A stretch of DNA of 64,000 nucleotides from the human T2T-CHM13v2.0 reference genome, Homo sapiens, in assembly GCF_009914755.1 (NCBI RefSeq), contig NC_060936.1; one strand, 5' to 3'. Position numbers and translations under genes: made by a program. Positions 1 through 37,828 of the stretch are shown here, in pieces; within the stretch, counting starts at the first letter, position 1; the number at the start of each line of letters is the position of its first letter. Under the pieces are notes generated by a model. That model saw only the letters and a program-made list of their open reading frames with translations. It was not told where the DNA came from and ran no database searches.

Positions 1-442
1 CCACCCAACCTGTCTTGTGCTTAATATCAGAGTGGTGTAGTGGGTGGATGGTGGCAAGGGAGATATGTGCTTTTTCTTACTACTTTTGTCATTGTTCTAC
101 GTTTTTTTTTTTTTTTTAAAGCAGCCTTTCTTCCCTCTCCAAATATTTACATTTTCCTTAAATCCAGAATTTTAATTTGGGGTATCCCATATTTAGCTTT
201 GTAGCAGCTATCTTCACAATGTATACAAGGCAAGGAATTACCACATTTCATCTTTACAGAATTTAAGGCGCTAAACAACCTACGTGTAACTATTTTTGGT
301 GAAAGTTACATATAAAATGGATTACTGAAGGAGGCTCAACTCTTTGGAAACTCTTAAAATCAGGATGAGTGCTGATAATTTCTAATTAGATGGTTTGGGT
401 TAATTTTATCTAAAAGTACAGAGAAAGTTAAAATGTGTAATG

Positions 443-743
<301 letters not shown>

Positions 744-904
744 GTGTTTATATTGAACTAGTAGCTTATTGTTAGTAGAATGAATTCTAACCCGATTTCT
801 CACTTACGTGTGAAATATTTGGTTATTCATTTTCCATCTTTCAAGGAAGAGATAGAACATTATTGTAATTTTTAAAACTTATTTATTTTTTAAATTTTAT
901 TTTA

Positions 905-1345
905 TATATTTTTTTTCAGACAGAGTCTCACTGTATTACACAGGCTGGAGTGCAAGTGGCACAATCTTGGCTCACTGCAACCTCCGCCTCCCAGGCTTAA
1001 GTAATCCTCATCTCAGCCTCCCGAGTACATGCAGGCCATGTTCCTGGCTAATTTTTTTGTATTTTTTGTAGAGATGGGATTTCACCCATCTCTGTTGTCC
1101 AGGCTGGTCTCTAATTCCTGAGCTCAGGTGATCCACCCACTTCAGCCTCCGAAAGTGCTGGGATTATGGGCATGAGGCACCACGCCTGGCCTTACTTTTT
1201 ATTTTAGAGATGGAGTCTTGCTTATTGCCCAGGATGGAGTGCAGTAGTGTGCAGCAGAGCTTCTAACTCCTGGGCTCAAACGATCCTGCTGTCTCAGCCT
1301 CTGGAGTAACTAGTACTATAGGTGCTACTACACCACACCTGGCTA
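905..1345 (-). mobile_element. AluJ plus adjacent monomeric Alu-like fragment
   Basis: Reverse-complement Alu motifs; boundaries approximate. Confidence 0.85.
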
Positions 1346-1429
1346 AGAGAACGTTATTTTCAATGATAGTGTCTACCAACTCATAAAGATAGTCTTCCTC
1401 CACCCACATTTATTTCAATGGTCATAGAA

Positions 1430-1600
1430 AAAAAAATCAGACTACCTAGATTCAAATCCCAGCTCTACACTAGCTATGTGACTTTGCACATATCATTTAA
1501 TTTCTCTGTGCCTCAATTTCCTCATCTATAAAATGGGAATAACAGTCCTACCTCATAGGGTTGTTGTAAAAATTAAATAAGTTAATATCCATGAAGCATC
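1430..1600 (+). mobile_element. MIR SINE
   Basis: Core ttcaaatcccagctct...tctctgtgcctcaatttcctcatctataaaatgggaataacagt. Confidence 0.85.
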
Positions 1601-2271
1601 AGGCTCCGTTCTATTGTTATTTTCTAGTAGGAAATTAACAATAGATATTAGTTATTGTTATTGCATAGACTATTTATAGCTTAGCAGGTAATGAGTCCGC
1701 CAATCTGAATGCTCCAACCATGCATCTGCTGCATAATTTAAAAGTATTGCTAAAACCTGAAGCTGGGCAATTCAGGGAAGCATAAACAGTTATTTTGAAG
1801 TATTCACATAGATTTTTTAAAGTCAGGTAAGTTTTGGCTTTTCTATTAGAATATATGAGATCTTTTTTTAATACACCAGAGCTTTCCTCTATTTGTAATT
1901 TGTTTACATTTTTAATTTAAAGAAAGCCATTTAAAAATTTAGAAAGGAATTTTAAATGTTTGAAGTCTTCCAAACAGTGGTATGAGAAAAAAATTAAGGG
2001 TTGTCCTGTAATTTTTCATAATTTTTAGCCGTTTATAAAACCCTGGCTTCCTAGTTTCTTCTATCTGAAATAGCCCTTTATAATTATTATTATTATGTTG
2101 AAAGATCAATAATAAAAATTATGTACTACTGAAGATAAAGGGATTGTATTACTCTTTTAATAATTACTTATTTTTTAAATGAATTCTAACAAAAAGGTCC
2201 CTAAATGGGAGTTCTGACTCTGTCCCTAAAGTTATATAATCTTGAGTAAATCACTTAAAAATTTTGTGTTT

Positions 2272-3170
<899 letters not shown>

Positions 3171-3369
3171 TAATGAGCATTTTTCCCTATTGCAATCGCC
3201 TAAATAAAATCATCTCCTTAATTGTTCAGTACATTTTGTTTTTCACAATATTATTAAATTCCAAGGCTAAATTTCCAAAATGGGAGGTAAAGGAGGGAGG
3301 AGGGCTTGTTTGCTCTAAAAAATAAAAATATAAAAATTCAGGTTAAGGTTAACTTAGGAGGACACTTAC

Positions 3370-3775
3370 TATAATATAATTGTTCCATGAACTTTTTAAG
3401 TGCAGAAATATTGATGAGGTTGTGGAAATAACATACAAATGAAGTTCTGACTCCTTTTTCTCTAAATTTGAGTTGCTCTGTGAAGGGGAATCTAAGAGGG
3501 AATTTCCTAAGTAAAACTCATTTCCGTTCCCATTGCACTTGAAAGGAATTTCACTTATGGAGTTGTGATCTGGAAGTCCCTGGGGTTCTTTTGTGTTTGT
3601 TGTGCAAGATGGCTCGCTGACAGCCTTGCCAGTTGTTGGTGCAGACTGAGAGCTCCTCCTGGAGGGGGAAGGTAGGGGTCGAAAGGCACCTTGGCCATGA
3701 AGGGACAGCTTTTTGAGGCCTGGACGAGGACAGAGAGTTGAGTCCTTGGATGGTGTACTGCTCTCCTGCTGGTCC
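3370..3775 (-). CDS. C12orf56: C12orf56 internal coding exon (exon 4), 406 nt
   Basis: Acceptor cctgacag| and donor |gtaagt. Stop-free frame (R)DQQESSTPSKDSTLCPRPGLKKLSLHGQGAFRPLPSPSRRSS...ELHLYVISTTSSIFLHLKSSWNNYII. Phase matches the 15734-15806 exon. It has no in-frame ATG and the ORF track does not report this frame. Protein recognised from memory. Confidence 0.9.
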
Positions 3776-4194
3776 CTGTCAGGTAGAATTTAGTATTAAA
3801 CATGACATGCAAAATTTCACAGTAAGCAACAAAGAGAACCGGTAGTTTAAGACTGAACACAAATGTTTTCTCACAAAAGGAATGCTTGTTAAAACAAGGA
3901 AGTCATTGAACCTCGCTGGTAATAACCCATTGACTAGAGGAGATTTGATACTGCAATCTTTTAGTATACGTTTCTGTTTTCAGAAATAAACTGTATTTCG
4001 GAAATACATTTTATTTCACAGAATGAAGCACTGTATATATTGAAAGTATTGTGCCTGTCCTTCATGGAGCCCTGATATTTCCACTGAAAGGACTTTTTAA
4101 GTTTTGAAACTTGATTGTCCTTTAATTGTACATTGCTAATGGATCCTATAAAGAAAAAACAATTCAAATAGGGATATGAAGAGAGGGGTTTTGT

Positions 4195-5257
<1,063 letters not shown>

Positions 5258-5517
5258 TGAGATTTTTTAAATGATGTTTTCTTTAATTCCCCTCCTGCTA
5301 ATACTCTTCTGATTTTCCCAATAGCATCAGCACTTTTTTCAGAATCAATGCTGTGTCCTTTACTTTCCCTATTCTCTCCAGCTCACCATGACCTTTCTTT
5401 ACTTTGCTGCACAAGAAAACAAGTTGGAGAAACTAAGAAGTTGCAGAGTATGGTGAGACCTAAATTCCAATCCTGGCTCTGCCACTTAATGGTTATGTGA
5501 CCTTTGTTAAACAAAGT

Positions 5518-5874
5518 TGATGAGAGGCCATTGTTTTCAACTAGCCTCCTGCATGAGGCCCCAGCAGAACGGACCAAAACAGAAGGGAGTCCCTTGTGCT
5601 TAGTACCAGTAATCAAACTGAACTTGGAAACTGACCAGTTTTCCAGAAGAACAGATTCCACTCAACCTCAGTCAATAATGAAGTAGTGTCCTCTGTTTTA
5701 ACCCTATAAGAACAGTAACTTTGAAACAAGCAATCCAATTTGTGCCTCATTTCAGCTTACTTCAGCCTTTCTCTGCCTATAAAGTCAACCTCCTCTGCTC
5801 AGCTTTTCAGACCACTTCTCCCACTTCTAGAATCACAAATAAAACTAAATCTATGCTTATTTTGTCTTTTGACA
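5518..5874 (+). mobile_element. ERV1 (MER4-group) solo LTR inserted in a MIR
   Basis: TG...CA ends, TATAAA and AATAAA; MIR sequence continues on both sides. Subfamily not assigned. Confidence 0.6.
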
Positions 5875-6153
5875 TCTTAGTGGACCTAGGACTTCATTTC
5901 CTAATTTTAAAATAGAAACAATAATAGTACCCATCTCATAAGGTTTATGTGAGGATACATGCAATGAGTTTGCAAAACTGGAAACAATATGTGCAAGCTA
6001 TTACTATTACCCTATATTGCCTTCAGTTGATGGTTTATCTTTTTTTTTATTTCAATAATTTTGAGGGGAAGTTTATCCTTTTACATTAAGTTATCTTCTC
6101 TCTCCCATAAGATTAGAACCTCCACGATAGTGGAAAACTACTTTGTTTTGTAG

Positions 6154-6297
<144 letters not shown>

Positions 6298-6300
6298 TAA

Positions 6301-6444
<144 letters not shown>

Positions 6445-6619
6445 TAAGTGGAATGTTTAACTCATTTATTTTTTTAAACTCTCTTATTTCTTGGTGAATA
6501 CAGTAAAAGCTGTAAATACAGCTTTAGAGCAGACCTCTAAAGTCTGCTTTAGCTCAGTTGCATGCACTTTGGTATGTATTGGCATTAAGTTCTAAGTATC
6601 TTTTAATTTCCTTTATTAT

Positions 6620-15733: not shown

Positions 15734-15806
15734 CTGAGAGGAGATTCTTTCAGACTTCTGGACTCTTTGCTTCTCCAAAAGGCAAGGCCGTTCTTTTCTT
15801 CCTTGA
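15734..15806 (-). CDS. C12orf56: C12orf56 internal coding exon (exon 3), 73 nt
   Basis: Poly-T acceptor ...tttttaag| and donor |gtgaga. Encodes (V)KEEKNGLAFWRSKESRSLKESPL(R). Phase 1 in and phase 2 out, matching both neighbouring exons. Confidence 0.9.
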
Positions 15807-24630: not shown

Positions 24631-25188
24631 TGTATTAGTCAGTGTTCTCTAGAGGGACAGAATTAATGGAATAAATATATAGAGCCCAATGTGTCCAGGT
24701 GGATATGATAACTTCCAGTTGTATATATATGATAACTTCCATATATTTATATATATGGACATTTATACAGAATGGGTAGAGAACTCCCATATATATATAT
24801 ATGGAAGTTTATTAAGTATTAACTCACATGATCACAAGGTCCCACAATAGGCTGTCTACAGGCTGAAGAACAAGGAGAGCCAGTCCGAGTTCCAAAACTG
24901 AAGAACTTGGAGTCTAATGTTTGAGGGAAGGAAGCATCCAGCACAGGAGAAAGATGTAGGTTGGGAGGCTAGACCGGTCTCTGTTTTCACATTTTTCTGC
25001 CTGCTTATATTCTGGCTGTGCTGGCAGATGATAAGATTGTGCCCACCCAGAATAAGGGTGGGTCTGCCTTCCCCAGCCCACTGACTCAAATGTTAATTTC
25101 CTCTGGCAACACCCTCACAGATACACCCAGGATCAATACTTTCTATCCTTCAATCCAATGAAGTGGACACTCAGTATTAACCATCACA
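24631..25188 (-). mobile_element. HERV-L 3' LTR (MLT2A)
   Basis: TG..CA termini; PPT aaggggtggact immediately upstream on the minus strand; AATAAA at 24808-24813. Confidence 0.92.
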
Positions 25189-28100
25189 AGTCCACCCCTT
25201 GTCAACTTAAACCCATATACATCCCCTGAGATCATACATAACCTTCAAATAAAGACAATAATAAGGTCATAATTATGCCTAGCATAATACAACTATCCTT
25301 TGTACAACCAGAAATGCAACAATCCCCAACCCAAATACTATTCCATAAAGTTAACAATATTTAAATGCTGATGTAAAGTCAATAAATCTTATGTCACATG
25401 CTAAAGGAAAAAGGAAATAAAATGAAGATATTTTCTTAGTACAAGTGTATACATGCACAAACATGTTTTTAACGAAAGAAGGAGGAAATACTCATGACAA
25501 TTACAGTCCTTGTTTCTGCATCTGGTCACGTCGTCATAGCTGGTATTGATGACTACCTTCTTCTACTACCCATTCTGTATTCTTTTTGCCTTCAGCAAGC
25601 ACCTCAGCAGGTCATGGTTTTTTCCTGGTGGAGTGACCCAAACCTTCATTCATGAAGGGTCTGGGTCATTTGTAGTCCTGCCTGAATTGGGCTGTTGTAG
25701 TTTCTCACTGACCTTAATCAAAGGGCATAGTAACACTAAGAGACACCCTAATGGATCTCCTGTATTCCATGCATACTCTTTCTTAACTCCATTGTGGAGT
25801 TGTAGACTGATTTCATCTTGATAGTCTGGGTCAGTCACCCCAGCCAACACTGTAACTACCTTCTTGGCCTGTTGACTTAAAGGTAGGAGGAGCCCAATGT
25901 GTCCAGGTGGATATGATAACTTCCAGTTTAATGAAATCGTTGTTGTGTCTCCTGGTGGCAGCATTCCTCCCTCTGGAACTGAGACCTCTAGGCTAGCAGA
26001 ATGTAATGTCATGGGAACAGGAAGCAAAAATTTTGCTAGTGGATCTCTAGGGGTGATGGTGAGTGGTGCCACTTCCGCTTCCACCCCTTGATTCCTGGAC
26101 CCATGAATCCTGGCTATGGGAGGAACAGCACCATATTGGATGCTGATTCAGAGCATACATGGCCTTCTGGAGAACTCTGCCCCAGCCCTGCAAAGTATTG
26201 TCACCTAGTTGGCCTTGTAATTGTAACTTCAAAAGGCCATCCCACCATTCTATCAATCCAGCTGCTTCAGGATGAGGAGGAACATGGTAAGACCAGTGAA
26301 TTCCATGAGCATGAGCCCACATCGCACTTCTTTAGCCGTAAAGTGAGTGCCTTGGTCAGAGGCAATGCTGTGTGGAATACCATGAAGGTGGGTAAGGCAT
26401 TCCGTGAGTCCACAGATGGTAGTCTTGGCAGAAGCATTGAGTGCAGGATAGGCAAACCCATATCCGGAGTAAGTGTCTATTCTGATGAGGACAAACCTCT
26501 GCCCTTTCCATGATGGAAAAGGCCTAATATAATCAACCTGCCACCAGGTAGCTGGCTGATCACCCCGAGGAATGGTGCCATATTGAGGGCTCAGTGTTGG
26601 TCTCTTCTGCTGGCAAATTGGGCACTCAGCAGTAGTCATAGCCAGATCAGCTTTGGTGAGTGGAAGTCCATGTTGCTGAGCCCATGCATAACCTCCATCC
26701 CTGCCACTATGACCACTTTGTTCATGGGCCCATTGGGTGATGACAGGGTTGGCTGGGGAAAGAGGCTTAGTGGTGTCCACAGAATGGGTCATCCTATCCA
26801 CTTGATTATCAAAATCCTCCTTTGCTGAGGCCACCCGTTGGTGAGCACTCACATGGGATACAAATATCTTCCCAGTTTTTGACCACACAAAGAGGTCCAT
26901 CCACATACCTCTTCCCCAAATTTCTTTGTCACCAATTTTCCAATAATGCTTCTTCTGGAAGCTTCTTCTAGCAGTCCCTGACCATCCACCAAACCATTGG
27001 CTACAGCCCATGAATCAGTATGCAATCGTACATCTGGCCATTTCTCCTTCCATGCAAAGCGCACATCCAGGTGCACTGCTCGAAGTTCTGCCCAATGGGA
27101 AGATTTCCCTTCACCACTGTGCTTCAGGGATGTCCGAGAAAGAGGCCGTAGTGCTGCAGCTGTCCACTTTCGGGTGGTGCCTGCATATCATGCAGAACCA
27201 TCTGTGAACCAGGCCCTAGTCTTCTCTTCCTCTGTCAACTGATCATAGGGAACTCCCCGTGAGGCCAGTGATACAGGCTAGGGGAGAGAAGGCAGGGTGG
27301 CAGAAACCATGGGCATTTGAGCCACTTCCTCATGTAACTTACTTATGCCTTCAGGACCTGCTTGAGCCCGTTCACATATATACCACTTCCATTTGATGAT
27401 GGAATGCTGCTGTGCATGATCCACTTTATGGCTAGATGTGTCAGAAAGCACCCAGTTCATGATAGGCAGTTCAGGTCACATGGTGACTTGGTGACCCATG
27501 GTCAAACGTTCAGTTTCCACCAAAGCCCAGTAACAGGCCAAGAGCTGTTTCTCAAAAGGAGGGTAGTTATTTGCAGAAGGCAGGGCCTTGCTCCAAAATC
27601 CTAGAGGCCTCCTCTGTAATTCACCTATGGGGGCCTCCCAAAGGCTCCAAACAGCATCTCTATCTGTGACTGACAGCTCAAGCACCATTGGATCTGCCGG
27701 GTCATATGGCCCAAGTGGCAGAGCAGCTTGCACAGCAGCCTGGACCTGTTGCAGAGCCTTCTCCTGTTCTGGACCCCACTCAAAACTGGCAGCCTTTCAG
27801 GTCACTTGATAAATGAGCCAGAGTAACACACCCAAATGAGGGATGTCTTGCCTCCAAAATTCAAATAGGCCCACTAGGCATTGTGGCTCTTTCTTGGTTG
27901 TAGAGAGGGCCAAATGAAGCAACTTATCCTTCACCTTAGAAGGAATATCTCGACAGGCCCCACACCACTGGACCCCTAGAAATTTTACCGAGGTAGAAGG
28001 TCCCTGAATTTTAGTCGGATTTTTTTCCTATCCTCTAGCACACAAATGTCTCACCAATAAGTCCAGTGTGTTTGCTACTTCTTGCTCACTAGATCCAATC

Positions 28101-30830
28101 AGCATAATGTCATCAATGTAATGGACCAGTGTGATATCTTGCAGAAGCAAAAAGCGATCAAGGTCTCTCTGAATAAGATTATGACACAAAGCTGGAGAGT
28201 TGCTATACCCCTGAGGTAGGACAATAAAGGTATATTGCTGGCCTAGCTAGCTGAAGACAAATTACTTCTGGTGGGCCTATGGATAGGAATGGAGAAAAAG
28301 GCATTTGCCAAGTCAATGGCTGCATACCAGGTACCAGGAGATGTGTTAATTTGCTCAAGCAATGAAACCACATCTGGTACAGCAGCTGCACTTGGAGTCA
28401 CCACTTGGTTAAGCTTACAATAATCCACTGTCATTCTCCAAGATCCATCTGTCTTCTGCACAGGCCAAATGGGAGACAGATGAACAGGGATGTGGTGAGA
28501 ATCACCATCCCTGCGTCTTTCAAGTCCTTGATGGTAGCACTAATTTCCATGATCCCTCCAGGGACACAATATTGTTTTTGATTTACTATCTTTCTAGATA
28601 GAGGCAGCTCTAATGGCTTCCATTTGGCCTTTCCCACCATAATAGCCCTCAATCTACCAGCCAATGTGGGGGTTCTGCCAGCTGCTAAGTATGTCTATGC
28701 CAATTATGCATTCTGGCACTGGGGAAATGACCACAGGATGAGTCCAGGGGCCCACTGGACCCACTGTAACTCGAAGCTGAGCTAAAACTCCATTAATTAC
28801 CTGACCTCCATAAGCCCCTACTTTAACTGGAGGACCACAGTGATGTCTTGGGTCCCCTGGAATCAATGTCAGCTCAGAGCCATTGTCCAGTAGTCCCCTA
28901 AACGTCTGATCATTTCCCTTTCCCAAATGCACAGTTACCCTGCTAAAAGGTCACAGGTCTCCTGGGGGAAGGATGGGAGAAAGATTCACTGCATAAATTG
29001 TTGGTAATGTAGTGGGGTCCTTCCTTAAGGGGACATGACCTCCCCTTCATTCAAGGGGTTCTGGGTCTGTAAACTGGCTCAAATCTGGAAACTGATTAAG
29101 AGGCCATGATCCTCTGTTTTCATAATTCAAATTAGTCTTTTGTCCATTCGACCTAGAAGTTTTCTGCTTATATAAATTAAGTAGGAATGCAGTAGGCTTC
29201 CTATTAATTTCATTTCTAAGAACACCGTGGTTAATTAGCCAATGCCACAACTCTATGTGAGTCAGACTATTCTGATTGTTTTGCCTCTGCTGTCCATTAT
29301 GGTAACTATGCCCACCTTGCCTTTGACAGTTGAGTGCTGCCACTTGGCCACTGCCACCTCGGGATCCAATTATTCCCATTGTATTTAAATTTCATAGTTG
29401 AGTGACTGCAGTTCCCACCGTTAGATCTGACATACAGAGAAGAGCAATTACAGGGCTCTTCAAAGATGCAGGTGCTGCCCTCACACATCTATTTCACAAG
29501 GCATTGGTCAAGGGTATATCTTCTGGACCCTCCCAGCTGGGATGAGTAGCTCTAAAATGACTAATCCACTCCACCATCCCAAACTCCCTAAGCCTTTGGA
29601 TGCCTTCCCCTACATTAAACCAAGGGAGATGAGGCATTTCCGGCTCACTCACAGTGGGCCATCGTTTAATCCATATTTCAGCTAACCAAGCAAATAAACT
29701 ATTAGAACCTTTTTTAACTCCCTGAGCTGCAACATTAAACGCAGAGTCCCTACTTAGTGGGGCCAAATCAATAAATTCAGCCTGATCCAACTCTATGTTC
29801 CTTCCACCATTATCCCACACCCTTAATATCCATTCCCATGTCTGTTCTCCAGATTGTTGTTTAAAAAAATTAGAAAACTCATGAGGTTCTTTTTGAATGT
29901 AGCACACCTCCTTATGGGGTCATACTCTCAACCTCCAGGGGCCTACGGGGACTTTAGTTATAGGTCTACAAGCAAACAGGAACATTGGGGGGTGGGTCCT
30001 GAGGAGAGTCAACATTATTTTGCCTGGCAACTGCCTCAGGGGAGGCCATCACTGTTGCCTCAGGGGAGGCCATCACTGTTGCCTCAGGCAGTGCAGGATT
30101 TATCTCCTCAGGCAAAGGTGGCAAGACTGATGGCAGCATGGATCAGGGATGGGATGTTGCCATTACTGGGGCTAGGGAAGCTGTTTCTTCTGGCAAAAAA
30201 AAGTTCATCAGAGTTTACAAACTCAGTGTCCCCAACTTCATCAGGGTCCTCCCACACATTCCCATTCCAAGTTGCAGGGTCCCTTTCTTTTCCAGTCAAT
30301 GCCCTAACTTTAACAGTAGACACCTGGTGAGGCTGTGCATGTATCTTCCATTGCAGGTCAGCGACTTGCATGATAAGAGCTTGTGTCTGTTTTTCCACAA
30401 TTGTAGCTCTTTCACTATAGGAGATAAGACTCTCACTCAGGGCAATCTAAGCAGACTAGAGGTTCAGTATCTGCTTCTGACGCTGGTAGATAGAATCCCT
30501 GAGTTTATCATTTTCTTTCATCACTTTGTCTGCAGAATTTAGGAGCAACCAACAAGCTTCATTATGTTCCTTGGTTGTCTACATAATACTTCATACAAAT
30601 GTAGTATGCATAGAGTCACTAAACTCCTTGTCTCTCATGAGCGATGAATCAAGAATGTCAAATGCATTTATTTTGCACTCTCTAAACAGTTTATGCCAAG
30701 GACTATCAGTGCTCTCCATACTATTAGAAGTAGAGTCCTTAGCATTTTTTGGTCTAAGCATGTAAAGCAGTCAACTCCAGAAACCCCAAAACCAATGAAA
30801 GAACTCCATCCTTAATATTCAGTTCCTCTA

Positions 30831-30848
30831 GAACCACTCCTGGTACCA
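30831..30848 (-). other. Primer binding site, tRNA-Leu
   Basis: TGGTACCAGGAGTGGTTC just inside the 5' LTR, complementary to the tRNA-Leu(TAA) 3' end. Confidence 0.85.
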
Positions 30849-30853
30849 AAATT

Positions 30854-31297
30854 TGTATTAGTCAGGGTTCTCTAGAGGGACAGAACTAATGGAATATATA
30901 CATATACAAAGGGGAGTTTGGTAGGTATTAACTCACATGATCACAAGGTCCCACACTAGGCTGTCTATAGGCTGAGGAGCAAAGAGAGTCAGACCGAGTT
31001 CAAAACTGAAGAACCTGGAGCCCGACGTTCGAGGGCAGGAAGCATCCAGCACAGGAGAAAGATGTAGGCTGGGAGGCTAGGCGAGTCTCTCTTTTCACAT
31101 TTTTCTGCCTGCTTTATATTCTAACCTCACTGGCAGCTGATTAGATTATGCCCACCCAGATAAAGGGTGGGTCTGCCTTCCCCAGCCCACTGACTCAAAT
31201 GTTAATCTCCTTTGACAACACCTTCACACACATACCCAGGATCAAAACTTTGCATCCTTCAATTCAATCAAGTTGACACTCAGTATTAATCATCATA
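30854..31297 (-). mobile_element. HERV-L 5' LTR (MLT2A1-like, 444 bp)
   Basis: Homologous to 24631-25188; TATAAA at 31113-31118; TAATCTAATCA at 31138-31148. Confidence 0.92.
31138..31148 (-). promoter_or_regulatory. Consensus DUX4 motif TAATCTAATCA
   Basis: Exact match to TAAYYYAATCA about 20 bp upstream of the LTR TATA box; binding not shown. Confidence 0.7.
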
Positions 31298-31752
31298 GTG
31301 CCCAACCCATTTAAAAATTTTTATGGAGGTTTCATTAAGTAGGCATGAGTTATTAAATCATGGGTCACTGGTGATCATCTCAATCTCTAGTCCCTCTCCA
31401 TCCCAGGAGGTTAGAGATGTGGGTGGCAGTAGAGGAGGAGTGAAAGTTCTAACTCTCTAATCACATGATTGGTTCCTCTGGCAACCAGCCCCATCCTGAA
31501 GCTATCTAGAGGCCCACCAAGTGTCATCTCATTAGCATTTGTTCTATTGTTGAAAGGAGCTTGTTATGAATAACAAACAATGTTCTTATCACTCAGGAAA
31601 TTCTAAATGTTTCAGAAGCTCTGTGTGAGGAACTAGGCACAAGGACCACTGCACTCCAGTCTGGGCAACAAATTAAGACACGGTCTGAAAAAGAAAATAT
31701 CTATATCTATACCTATATCTATATATATATCTATCTATATCTGTCTATCTAG

Positions 31753-37665: not shown

Positions 37666-37828
37666 CTTTCTTGTTGTTAGCTTTAGTATGATGAAATGGA
37701 AATAGGAATTTCCTGACACTGTTTGACTTTTTACACTCTTTTTTCAAAACGGTTGAAGAATAGATGATACGAATGTGTTGGCTGATTTCTCTATCTGGCG
37801 AACTCAAAAATTCCGGGTAATCATCAAT
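37666..37828 (-). CDS. C12orf56: C12orf56 internal coding exon (exon 2), 163 nt
   Basis: Acceptor ttttttttccag| and donor AAG|gtaggt. Encodes IDDYPEFLSSPDREISQHIRIIYSSTVLKKECKKSNSVRKFLFPFHHTKANNKK and overlaps ORF 37601..37807. Confidence 0.92.

What the first reader, a model, noticed from the sequence alone, without database searches (positions are those of the whole stretch)
30854..31297. Sense-oriented MLT2A 5' LTR with DUX4 site, TATA box and splice donor: candidate embryonic alternative promoter for C12orf56
Seen on the minus strand (host orientation): perfect TAATCTAATCA (31138-31148), a second near-match (31260-31270), TATAAA (31113-31118) and donor CAT|GTGAGT (30931-30936). The LTR's own AATAAA is mutated to TACCAAA. 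Known: MLT2A1/HERV-L LTRs are DUX4-responsive promoters in cleavage-stage human embryos and make spliced chimeric transcripts. Inference: an LTR first exon could splice to the 15806 acceptor. Exons 3-4 have no in-frame ATG, so the product would be non-coding or N-truncated.
Basis: partly seen in the sequence, partly recalled or inferred. Interest (0 to 1): 0.7.

Follow-up and report, generated by a model that had tools for sequence, protein, structure and literature searches.

The report
HERV-L LTR inside C12orf56 intron
This is the front LTR of a dead ancient retrovirus sitting inside the human gene C12orf56; it keeps all the parts of an early-embryo promoter, but this element and its splicing to the gene are already catalogued in print and its measured activity is very low.

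Summary
The element is the 444-bp MLT2A1 5' LTR of a dead, near-full-length HERV-L provirus (24631-31297), in sense inside a C12orf56 intron. It keeps the family's embryonic promoter parts: two DUX4-type sites, TATAAA, an AG-rich start region and a GTGAGT donor. Its AATAAA signal has decayed. Only 6 of 40 sampled copies keep both sites, TATAAA and a GTRAGT donor. The exact TAATCTAATCA, the optimal DUX4 site, is a minority state (25 versus 593 genome-wide in LTR context), probably acquired after integration. No in-frame ATG exists in the three host exons of the window.

Hashimoto et al. 2021 already list a 444-bp minus-strand MLT2A1 here: 2 DUX4 motifs, detected in 1 embryonic cell, 0.076 TPM, "not active". 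Their supplementary figure lists "C12orf56 x 2" among 25 MLT2A elements spliced to coding genes in 4-8-cell embryos. This provirus's two LTRs are the only MLT2A elements in or within 40 kb upstream of the gene. C12orf56 is absent from Young 2013's 238 DUX4-activated promoters in myoblasts.

Verdict: observation confirmed, interpretation partly supported, mechanism and locus already in print. The LTR is a weak by-product promoter or exon. Low interest.

The parts
30854..31297 (-). 5' LTR, MLT2A1 type, 444 bp. Termini read TA...CA where most copies read TG...CA.
   Evidence: Family similarity ends at these positions. Full-length alignment to RepeatMasker-labelled MLT2A1 LTRs. Repbase MLT2A1 is 444 bp. 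Hashimoto Table S1 has a 444-bp minus-strand row at hg38 chr12:64346076-64346520.
31260..31270 (+). Site B: reverse-oriented DUX4-type site, LTR positions 28-38. Reads CAATTCAATCA on the + strand.
   Evidence: The homologous site reads CAATCCAATCA in 29 of 40 copies. Hashimoto describes one reverse and one forward DUX4 motif per MLT2A and scores 2 motifs for this element.
31239..31244 (-). TGATCC at the position where about 12% of MLT2A1 copies carry the OTX2 site TAATCC. This copy has the non-OTX2 state.
   Evidence: Sequence. Hashimoto text and Table S1, OTX2 motif = 0.
31138..31148 (-). Site A: forward DUX4 site TAATCTAATCA, LTR positions 150-160. This is the biochemically optimal 11-mer.
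   Evidence: Only exact hit in the window. Optimal 'CT flavour' per Zhang 2016. The family's usual state is CAATCTAATCA, 21 of 40. Genome-wide in LTR context: 25 T-state versus 593 C-state.
31113..31118 (-). TATA box, TATAAA, LTR positions 180-185.
   Evidence: TATAAA in 23 of 40 copies and TATA-like in 34 of 40. TATA boxes lie upstream of MLT2A start sites.
31083..31093 (-). Predicted transcription start region (AAGAGAGACTC, AG-rich), LTR positions 205-215. Inferred, not measured for this copy.
   Evidence: Hashimoto 2021: active MLT2A1 copies start at consensus positions 205-215 in an AG-rich region. Sequence.
30937..31093 (-). Predicted LTR first exon, about 145-160 nt. It holds one ATG that opens an 18-codon upstream ORF.
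30972..30973 (-). AG of an acceptor-like site (CTCTTTGCTCCTCAG|) 35 nt upstream of the donor. It could make a 35-nt cassette exon, 30971..30937.
   Evidence: Sequence only; use not shown.
30931..30936 (-). Splice donor GTGAGT (context CAT|GTGAGT), LTR position 362.
   Evidence: GTRAGT in 31 of 40 copies and GT in 36 of 40. MLT2A1 donors cluster around position 350.
30917..30922 (-). Decayed poly(A) signal: ACCAAA where most copies read AATAAA.
   Evidence: 32 of 40 keep AATAAA/ATTAAA. The 3' LTR of the same provirus keeps AATAAA.
25189..30853 (-). HERV-L internal region: PBS-like TGGTACCAGGAGTGG, then gag, protease, RT, RNase H, integrase and dUTPase. All are broken into short open frames.
   Evidence: Pfam RVP, RVT_1, RT_RNaseH_2, rve, dUTPase. 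85.8% identical almost end to end to a published HERVL-int provirus.
24631..25188 (-). 3' LTR, 558 bp, with 24- and 90-nt insertions. Both DUX4-type sites are decayed; the donor CAT|GTGAGT and AATAAA are kept.
15734..15806 (-). Next downstream C12orf56 coding exon, the proposed acceptor (TTTTTTTTTTAAG|TCA).
   Evidence: Hub annotation; splice context. No ATG in any frame.

Best explanation
The feature is the MLT2A1 5' LTR of a dead, near-full-length HERV-L provirus. The provirus integrated in sense orientation into a C12orf56 intron in an early simian ancestor.

The LTR still carries the whole promoter module by which this family fires at the human 4-8-cell stage:
- a reverse and a forward DUX4-type site;
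- a TATA box about 20 nt downstream of the forward site;
- an AG-rich start region about 28 nt further on;
- a strong GT donor about 150 nt after the start.

A C-to-T change, most likely after integration, turned the forward site into the optimal DUX4 11-mer. The poly(A) signal just after the donor has decayed.

In cleavage-stage embryos the LTR most likely fires only weakly, as part of the family-wide DUX4-driven burst. Its donor, and that of the 3' LTR, are occasionally spliced to C12orf56 coding exons. The resulting RNAs lack the gene's start codon, so they are non-coding or N-truncated by-products and not a dedicated promoter product.

Shown: anatomy, family, motif states, and the published catalogue values. 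Inferred: that the two published C12orf56-linked MLT2A elements are these two LTRs, that the RNAs start in the 5' LTR, and that DUX4 binds this copy.
For: Provirus and family:
- Pfam finds protease, RT, RNase H, integrase and dUTPase downstream of the LTR.
- The provirus aligns at 3-6489 of 6647 nt, 85.8% identical, to the chr11 MLT2A1-HERVL-int-MLT2A1 provirus of Young 2013 Fig. S5. I located that provirus with their primer.
- The LTR is 444 bp, the same as Repbase MLT2A1 and unlike MLT2A2 at 549 bp.

Family module:
- Of 40 other copies, 26 keep site A as YAAYBBAATCA, 30 keep site B, 23 have TATAAA and 31 have GTRAGT.
- Only 6 of 40 keep all four together.
- Layout, start site at 205-215 and donor near 350 match Hashimoto 2021.

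Site A:
- TAATCTAATCA is the most active DUX4 site (Zhang 2016).
- The same provirus's 3' LTR has C at position 1, as do 593 of 618 genomic copies of the 19-mer context.

Published data for this locus:
- Table S1 row at chr12:64346076-64346520, minus strand, 2 DUX4 motifs.
- 'C12orf56 x 2' appears in the list of 25 human MLT2A elements joined to coding genes. The underlying acceptor set (1,504 sites) was required to be supported by at least 3 samples.
- No other MLT2A element lies in T2T chr12:64243001-64409500.

Coding: 0 in-frame ATG in 214 codons, and one 18-codon upstream ORF in the LTR exon.
Against: - Hashimoto Table S1 scores this LTR as not active in embryos: expressed in 1 cell of the 4-8-cell set, mean 0.076 TPM. 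Their threshold was 5 cells, and 280 of 2,416 long MLT2A1 copies pass it.
- C12orf56 is absent from Young 2013 Table S4, the 238 DUX4-activated alternative promoters in myoblasts. Only 3 of those are MLT2A1, and none of the 13 chr12 rows is near this locus.
- C12orf56 has 0 hits in the supplements, as held, of Torre 2023, a 2026 TE-gene chimera atlas, Brind'Amour 2018 and Taubenschmid-Stowers 2022.
- About 97% of MLT2A acceptors lie in unannotated or non-coding DNA. A review of Xiang 2026 says 71-80% of MLT2A1 chimeras fuse to other repeats.
- I could not see the junction coordinates, so the identity of the two elements rests on elimination.
- The link between hg38 and the window rests on a constant offset of 21,223 and equal length.
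Confidence: 0.6

Rival explanations
1. Exonisation, not promotion. The published MLT2A-C12orf56 junctions come from C12orf56 pre-mRNA started at the gene's own promoter. In that case the LTR is spliced in as a cassette exon, using its internal acceptor-like site and its donor, or the donors are used after read-through.
For: - The LTR holds a good acceptor-like site (pyrimidine run plus CAG, AG at 30973-30972) 35 nt upstream of the donor.
- 5'-end data show almost no starts in this LTR: 1 cell, 0.076 TPM.
- The 3' LTR, whose two DUX4-type sites are both decayed, would also have to be 'connected'. That is easier if transcription comes from upstream.
Against: - Hashimoto's cloned and assembled MLT2A transcripts have first exons contained in the LTR.
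- A 35-nt exon is very short.
- I found no data on C12orf56 expression from its own promoter in 4-8-cell embryos.
- A 5' LTR start with read-through to the 3' LTR donor explains both elements equally well.
Confidence: 0.2
2. Inert relic. The LTR is silent in all tissues, and the published 'C12orf56 x 2' refers to other elements or to multi-mapping artefacts among similar HERV-L copies.
For: - Base rates are low. Only 280 of 2,416 long MLT2A1 copies are active in embryos.
- 20.7% of MLT2A1 copies are DUX4-bound in myoblasts, and 5.4% of those are activated.
- This copy is scored 'No' for embryo, pineal gland and amniotic membrane.
- Young 2013 warn of mis-mapping among related ERVL copies.
Against: - No other MLT2A element exists in the gene or within about 40 kb upstream.
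- The acceptor set behind the list (1,504 sites) was required to be supported by at least 3 samples, and a junction to a unique exon anchors the read.
- The best genomic matches to this LTR are only 86-90% identical, so mapping should be feasible.
Confidence: 0.12
3. Selected exaptation. The optimal DUX4 site, the loss of the poly(A) signal and the intact donor were retained by selection. On this view the LTR is a genuine embryonic or testis promoter, making a functional N-truncated C12orf56 protein or a regulatory RNA.
For: - The T-state at site A is rare: 25 versus 593.
- The full module without AATAAA is seen in 1 of 40 other copies.
- Precedents exist: MLT2A promoters for ABCE1, COL5A1 and GALNT13 in pineal gland.
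Against: - Measured activity is near zero.
- The three changes are few, and with thousands of copies some will show them by chance.
- No in-frame ATG lies in the next two exons.
- Expression of individual MLT2A copies is poorly conserved among primates, with Spearman 0.08-0.24.
Confidence: 0.05

Closest known systems
MLT2A1 (HERV-L LTR) embryonic promoters, as catalogued by Hashimoto et al. 2021 (Genome Res, PMC8559712)
   Same: Same family and length (444 bp). Same layout: reverse and forward DUX4 motifs, TATA box, AG-rich start region and GT donor near position 350. This very element appears in their Table S1, and C12orf56 is in their list of genes joined to MLT2A elements.
   Different: It fails their criterion for an active element: 1 cell against at least 5. 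Unlike most copies it has T, not C, at position 1 of the forward site, and it has lost AATAAA.
DUX4-activated MLT2A1 alternative promoters in myoblasts: ALG13, ATF7IP, PA2G4P4 (Young et al. 2013 Table S4, PMC3836709)
   Same: An MLT2A1 LTR upstream of host exons, in sense, with DUX4 motifs.
   Different: Those three have linking reads after DUX4 expression. C12orf56 is not among the 238 listed promoters.
Pineal-gland MLT2A promoters of ABCE1, COL5A1 and GALNT13 (Hashimoto 2021)
   Same: The LTR supplies the first exon and donor. For COL5A1 the start codon is lost, so a shorter protein is expected, much like the N-truncation predicted here.
   Different: Those are somatic, tied partly to an OTX2 TAATCC site. 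This copy has TGATCC, OTX2 motif 0 and pineal expression 0.
MLT2A1 'conserved head, variable tail' chimeric RNAs at human genome activation (Xiang et al., Science 2026; seen only through a review and a commentary)
   Same: A 5' MLT2A1 segment joined to downstream sequence.
   Different: 71-80% of those tails are other repeats. The primary paper and its locus lists are not held, so whether this copy contributes is unknown.

Membership tests
MLT2A1 (LTR of HERV-L) | Colinear over its full length with LTRs that RepeatMasker labels MLT2A1 | tested here: met
   Aligns at 3-444 of 444 at 83.0% to the 5' LTR of the chr11 provirus labelled MLT2A1-HERVL-int-MLT2A1 in Young 2013 Fig. S5. In an earlier 424-nt alignment it matched that provirus's 3' LTR at 80.6%.
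MLT2A1 (LTR of HERV-L) | Length near the 444-bp Repbase consensus (MLT2A2 is 549 bp) | tested here: met
   444 bp between the points where similarity among independent copies ends. Consensus lengths come from Hashimoto 2021.
MLT2A1 (LTR of HERV-L) | Listed as MLT2A1 in a published RepeatMasker-derived table | tested here: met
   Table S1 row chr12:64346076-64346520, minus strand, 444 bp. The match to the window rests on a constant offset of 21,223 at both ends, and on there being no other MLT2A element nearby except the 558-bp 3' LTR. That sheet S1 is the MLT2A1 sheet follows from the paper's text.
MLT2A1 (LTR of HERV-L) | Flanks an ERV-L internal region (pro-pol with a dUTPase after the integrase) | tested here: met
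   Pfam RVP, RVT_1, RT_RNaseH_2, rve and dUTPase in that order downstream. That the dUTPase position is an ERV-L hallmark is recalled knowledge.
MLT2A1 (LTR of HERV-L) | 5-bp target-site duplication and TG...CA termini | tested here: inconclusive
   Flanks are GGCAC and GACAT, 3 of 5 matching, with both differences transitions. Termini read TA...CA. Five solo copies (L003, L010, L022, L028, L030) show exact 5-bp duplications.
Embryo-active MLT2A1 promoter (sensu Hashimoto 2021) | DUX4 motifs, one reverse and one forward | tested here: met
   Sites at LTR positions 28-38 (reverse) and 150-160 (forward). Table S1 gives DUX4 motif = 2.
Embryo-active MLT2A1 promoter (sensu Hashimoto 2021) | TATA box upstream of an AG-rich start region at positions 205-215 | tested here: met
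   TATAAA at 180-185 and AAGAGAGACTC at 205-215. This is sequence only; no start-site data for this copy beyond the next row.
Embryo-active MLT2A1 promoter (sensu Hashimoto 2021) | 5'-end reads in at least 5 four- or eight-cell blastomeres | tested here: not met
   Table S1: expressed in 1 cell, mean 0.076 TPM, 'Active in embryo: No'.
Embryo-active MLT2A1 promoter (sensu Hashimoto 2021) | GT donor inside the LTR near position 350 | tested here: met
   CAT|GTGAGT with GT at position 362.
Embryo-active MLT2A1 promoter (sensu Hashimoto 2021) | DUX4 occupancy by ChIP-seq | not testable with these tools
   Peak lists are not in the supplements I could read. Hendrickson 2017 is not held.
LTR-derived alternative promoter of a host gene | Junction reads from the LTR donor to host coding exons | tested here: inconclusive
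   'C12orf56 x 2' is among the 25 human MLT2A elements joined to coding genes. The two LTRs here are the only candidates in the gene plus 40 kb upstream. I could not see donor or acceptor coordinates. C12orf56 is absent from the myoblast list.
LTR-derived alternative promoter of a host gene | The chimeric RNAs start in the LTR | not testable with these tools
   This needs long reads or 5'-end reads linked to the junction.
LTR-derived alternative promoter of a host gene | Conservation or selection of the promoter state in other primates | not tested

The most novel reading that the evidence does not exclude
The post-integration change that made the forward site the optimal DUX4 11-mer, the loss of the LTR's own poly(A) signal and the intact donor are not chance. 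On this reading, one 5' LTR promoter with two donors (5' and 3' LTR) was retained in apes. It would be a cleavage-stage or testis switch producing an N-truncated C12orf56 protein or a regulatory RNA with a function of its own.
Probability: 0.06. Interest if true: 0.5.

Novelty: already known. Interest (0 to 1): 0.22.

Why it matters
MLT2A1 LTRs are the main DUX4-responsive promoters at human embryonic genome activation, and recent work assigns their chimeric RNAs a role in that process. This copy shows how a full promoter module can persist in a gene's intron and leak into the host's exons. It adds nothing new in kind: the element, its motif count, its low activity and the link to C12orf56 are already tabulated. 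The new details are small. Its forward site is the rare optimal DUX4 11-mer, probably gained after integration. Its poly(A) signal is lost. The two published C12orf56-linked elements are most likely the two LTRs of one provirus.

Tried and rejected
1. I first suspected from memory that the LTR was an MLT1 (MaLR) element. I rejected this because the downstream region encodes protease, RT, integrase and dUTPase, and the LTR matches published MLT2A1 labels.
2. I first set the 5' end at 31277/31278. The family flank comparison corrected it to 31297. The motif counts and the K2P value used the 424-nt part only.
3. The repeat finder over the whole window showed only Alu families in the 20 of 25 families listed, and did not reveal the 3' LTR. 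blastn did.
4. Literature searches:
   - C12orf56 with DUX4: 0 papers.
   - C12orf56 alone: 37 papers. None of the 30 listed titles concerns embryos or LTRs.
   - No top-listed paper pairing C12orf56 with MLT2A1, HERVL, 8-cell, ZGA or 8CLC.
5. C12orf56 had 0 hits in the supplements, as held, of these papers:
   - Torre 2023.
   - Young 2013 Table S4. I did not search Table S5 or files 13-16.
   - The 2026 TE-gene chimera atlas.
   - Brind'Amour 2018.
   - Taubenschmid-Stowers 2022.
   Some stored files are cut, so absence is weak evidence.
6. Hendrickson 2017 and Xiang 2026 are not held.
A weak 66% fragment at 113,916-114,020 has no donor region and is not MLT2A.
9. I did not attempt MaxEnt-type splice scoring or PWM scoring with the JASPAR DUX4 matrix, because no matrices are held.
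10. The MLT2A1 sample of 40 copies consists of best matches to two query LTRs, not a random sample. The genome-wide 19-mer counts are the less biased estimate.

Full report
**What is there**

- TAATCTAATCA at 31148..31138;
- TATAAA at 31118..31113;
- CAT|GTGAGT with GT at 30936;
- ACCAAA at 30922..30917, where related copies mostly read AATAAA.

I first set the 5' end 20 nt too far in. Comparison of 38 other copies with their flanks shows that family similarity runs through a further 20 nt and then stops. The LTR is therefore 30854-31297, 444 bp.

**It is the 5' LTR of a provirus**

Directly downstream lie a PBS-like TGGTACCAGGAGTGG and a string of short open frames. Pfam assigns these to retroviral protease, reverse transcriptase, RNase H, integrase and dUTPase, in that order.

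A second LTR lies at 24631-25188. It is 86.5% identical over 399 nt plus 92% over the last 51, and is interrupted by 24- and 90-nt insertions. The provirus is thus 24631-31297 (6,667 bp), in sense within the intron between the exons at 37666-37828 and 15734-15806. All its genes are broken into fragments; the longest open frame is 253 codons.

The flanks are GGCAC and GACAT, a decayed 5-bp duplication. Five solo copies show exact 5-bp duplications.

The two LTRs differ at 52 of 423 aligned sites (K2P 0.136). That gives roughly 31-68 million years, depending on the rate assumed. This fits the 45-65 million years that Hashimoto 2021 give for MLT2A.

**Family**

No repeat library is at hand, so I anchored the name to published labels.
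- Young 2013 Fig. S5 shows a provirus at hg19 chr11:121.88-121.895 Mb, labelled MLT2A1-HERVL-int-MLT2A1 by RepeatMasker.
- Their RT-PCR primer hits the held genome exactly once.
- The window's provirus aligns to that locus at 3-6489 of 6647 nt at 85.8%.
- Its 5' LTR aligns at 3-444 to that provirus's 5' LTR at 83%.
- Hashimoto 2021 state that Repbase MLT2A1 is 444 bp and MLT2A2 is 549 bp. This LTR is 444 bp.
- Their Supplemental Table S1 has a row chr12:64346076-64346520, minus strand, ID 2575. It has the same length and strand as the window's LTR, at a constant offset of 21,223 from the T2T coordinates.

My first suspicion, from memory, that this was an MLT1 element was wrong.

**The motifs are inherited family parts, with three copy-specific changes**

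I recorded the state of each short motif in 40 other copies. Eleven were best matches to this LTR and 29 were best matches to the published chr11 MLT2A1.

| Feature | State in the 40 other copies |
|---|---|
| Forward site | CAATCTAATCA in 21; TAAYCYAATCA in only 3 |
| Reverse site at 31260-31270 | reverse complement CAATCCAATCA in 29; CAATTCAATCA in the window |
| TATA box | TATAAA in 23; TATA-like in 34 |
| Donor | GTRAGT in 31; GT in 36 |
| Poly(A) signal | AATAAA or ATTAAA in 32 |

Both sites plus TATAAA plus GTRAGT are kept together in 6 of 40, and in 1 of 40 also without AATAAA.

Genome-wide, the forward site with its 8 adjacent LTR bases occurs 25 times in the T-state and 593 times in the C-state. 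The 3' LTR of the same provirus has C at that position. The T in the 5' LTR is therefore most simply a change after integration.

Zhang 2016 found TAATCTAATCA to be the most preferred and most active DUX4 site, with the consensus base favoured at every position except position 5. The C-state is still a good site: the chr11 LTRs carry it and score above Young's PWM threshold under ChIP peaks.

Taken alone, one exact TAAYYYAATCA in 64 kb is not beyond chance: 0.63 are expected, and 46 of 100 shuffles have at least one.

**Layout against the published promoter**

Hashimoto 2021 report the following for active MLT2A1 copies:
- one reverse and one forward DUX4 motif;
- an OTX2-type hexamer near position 50;
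- TATA boxes upstream of start sites at positions 205-215, in an AG-rich region;
- GT donors around position 350.

In this LTR the same parts lie at:
- 28-38: reverse site;
- 54-59: TGATCC, the non-OTX2 state;
- 150-160: forward site;
- 180-185: TATA box;
- 205-215: AAGAGAGACTC;
- 362: donor.

The predicted first exon is about 150 nt.

**What a chimeric RNA would encode**

The three host exons in the window form one open frame of 214 codons with no ATG in frame. Exon 15734-15806 has no ATG in any frame, and the five ATGs of exon 3370-3775 are all out of frame. The LTR exon has one ATG, opening an 18-codon ORF that stops within the LTR exon.

**Is it used?**

Base rates:
- In DUX4-expressing myoblasts, 20.7% of 3,780 MLT2A1 copies are bound, and 5.4% of the bound ones are activated.
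- In embryos, 280 of 2,416 long MLT2A1 copies are active.
- MLT2A1 opens at the 4-cell stage, and 30.2% of the open copies are DUX4-bound.

For this copy:
- Table S1 gives 2 DUX4 motifs and 0 OTX2 motifs. It was expressed in 1 cell of the 4-8-cell set, at a mean of 0.076 TPM, and is marked "Active in embryo: No". Pineal gland and amniotic membrane are both 0.
- C12orf56 is not among Young's 238 DUX4-activated alternative promoters. Only 3 of those are MLT2A1, and none of the 13 chr12 rows is nearby.
- C12orf56 does not occur in four other supplement sets as held.

On the other side, Hashimoto's splice analysis found 1,504 robust acceptors, each supported by at least 3 samples. About 97% lie in unannotated or non-coding DNA, and "25 human ... 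[quoted passage not shown] The human gene list in their supplementary figure includes "C12orf56 x 2" and sums to 25 only if the x2 entries count twice.

I scanned T2T chr12:64243001-64409500, that is, the whole gene plus about 40 kb upstream. The only MLT2A elements there are the two LTRs of this provirus. The other hits are two fragments of about 110 nt at 65-66% identity, without a donor region. Both LTRs keep CAT|GTGAGT. By elimination, the two published elements are these two LTRs.

**Most likely mechanism**

The 5' LTR is a weak member of the DUX4-driven MLT2A1 burst. Its RNAs either splice from the 5' LTR donor, or run through the provirus and splice from the 3' LTR donor, to C12orf56 exons. 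The products have no start codon of the gene.

The main rival is exonisation from host transcripts. The LTR has a pyrimidine-rich CAG acceptor-like site 35 nt upstream of its donor, and 5'-end reads in the LTR are almost absent.

Selection for a dedicated promoter is not excluded but has little support.

**Novelty**

The kind of element, this element itself and its link to C12orf56 are all in print, though only in supplementary material. The added details here are:
- the rare optimal DUX4 site, probably gained after integration;
- the decayed poly(A) signal;
- the assignment of the two linked elements to one provirus.

Noticed in passing
window 24682-24720 and 25890-25928: A 39-nt stretch inside the 90-nt insertion of the 3' LTR is identical (39 of 39) to a stretch in the provirus's dUTPase region. 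It looks like a short internal duplication or patch. The insertion is also AT-rich and partly self-complementary (hits at 24710-24809).
   Followed up: partly
window 30937-30973: The LTR holds an acceptor-like site (CTCTTTGCTCCTCAG|) 35 nt upstream of its donor. It could be spliced into host RNA as a 35-nt frame-shifting cassette exon.
   Followed up: partly
loci L002-L012 versus L019-L048: The copies closest to the window's LTR mostly have a GTGAGT donor and TATAAG (9 of 11 each). The copies closest to the chr11 MLT2A1 mostly have GTAAGT (20 of 29) and TATAAA (21 of 29). This suggests sub-lineages within MLT2A1. The window's LTR mixes the two states (GTGAGT with TATAAA).
   Followed up: partly
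window 24631-25188 (3' LTR): A sense-oriented AATAAA is kept in the 3' LTR inside the host intron, while both of its DUX4-type sites are decayed. The insertions lie just downstream of that signal.
   Followed up: no
window 31298-31520, minus strand: The sequence just upstream of the LTR looks like part of another old LTR-type repeat. It contains homeobox-like words such as CCAATCATGTGATTAG. It was not identified.
   Followed up: no
window -19254..-19139 (+ strand) and 113916..114020 (- strand), in loci L052 and L058/L060: Two fragments of about 110 nt, 65-66% identical to the first third of the LTR. They are probably remnants of more distant MLT-type families.
   Followed up: partly
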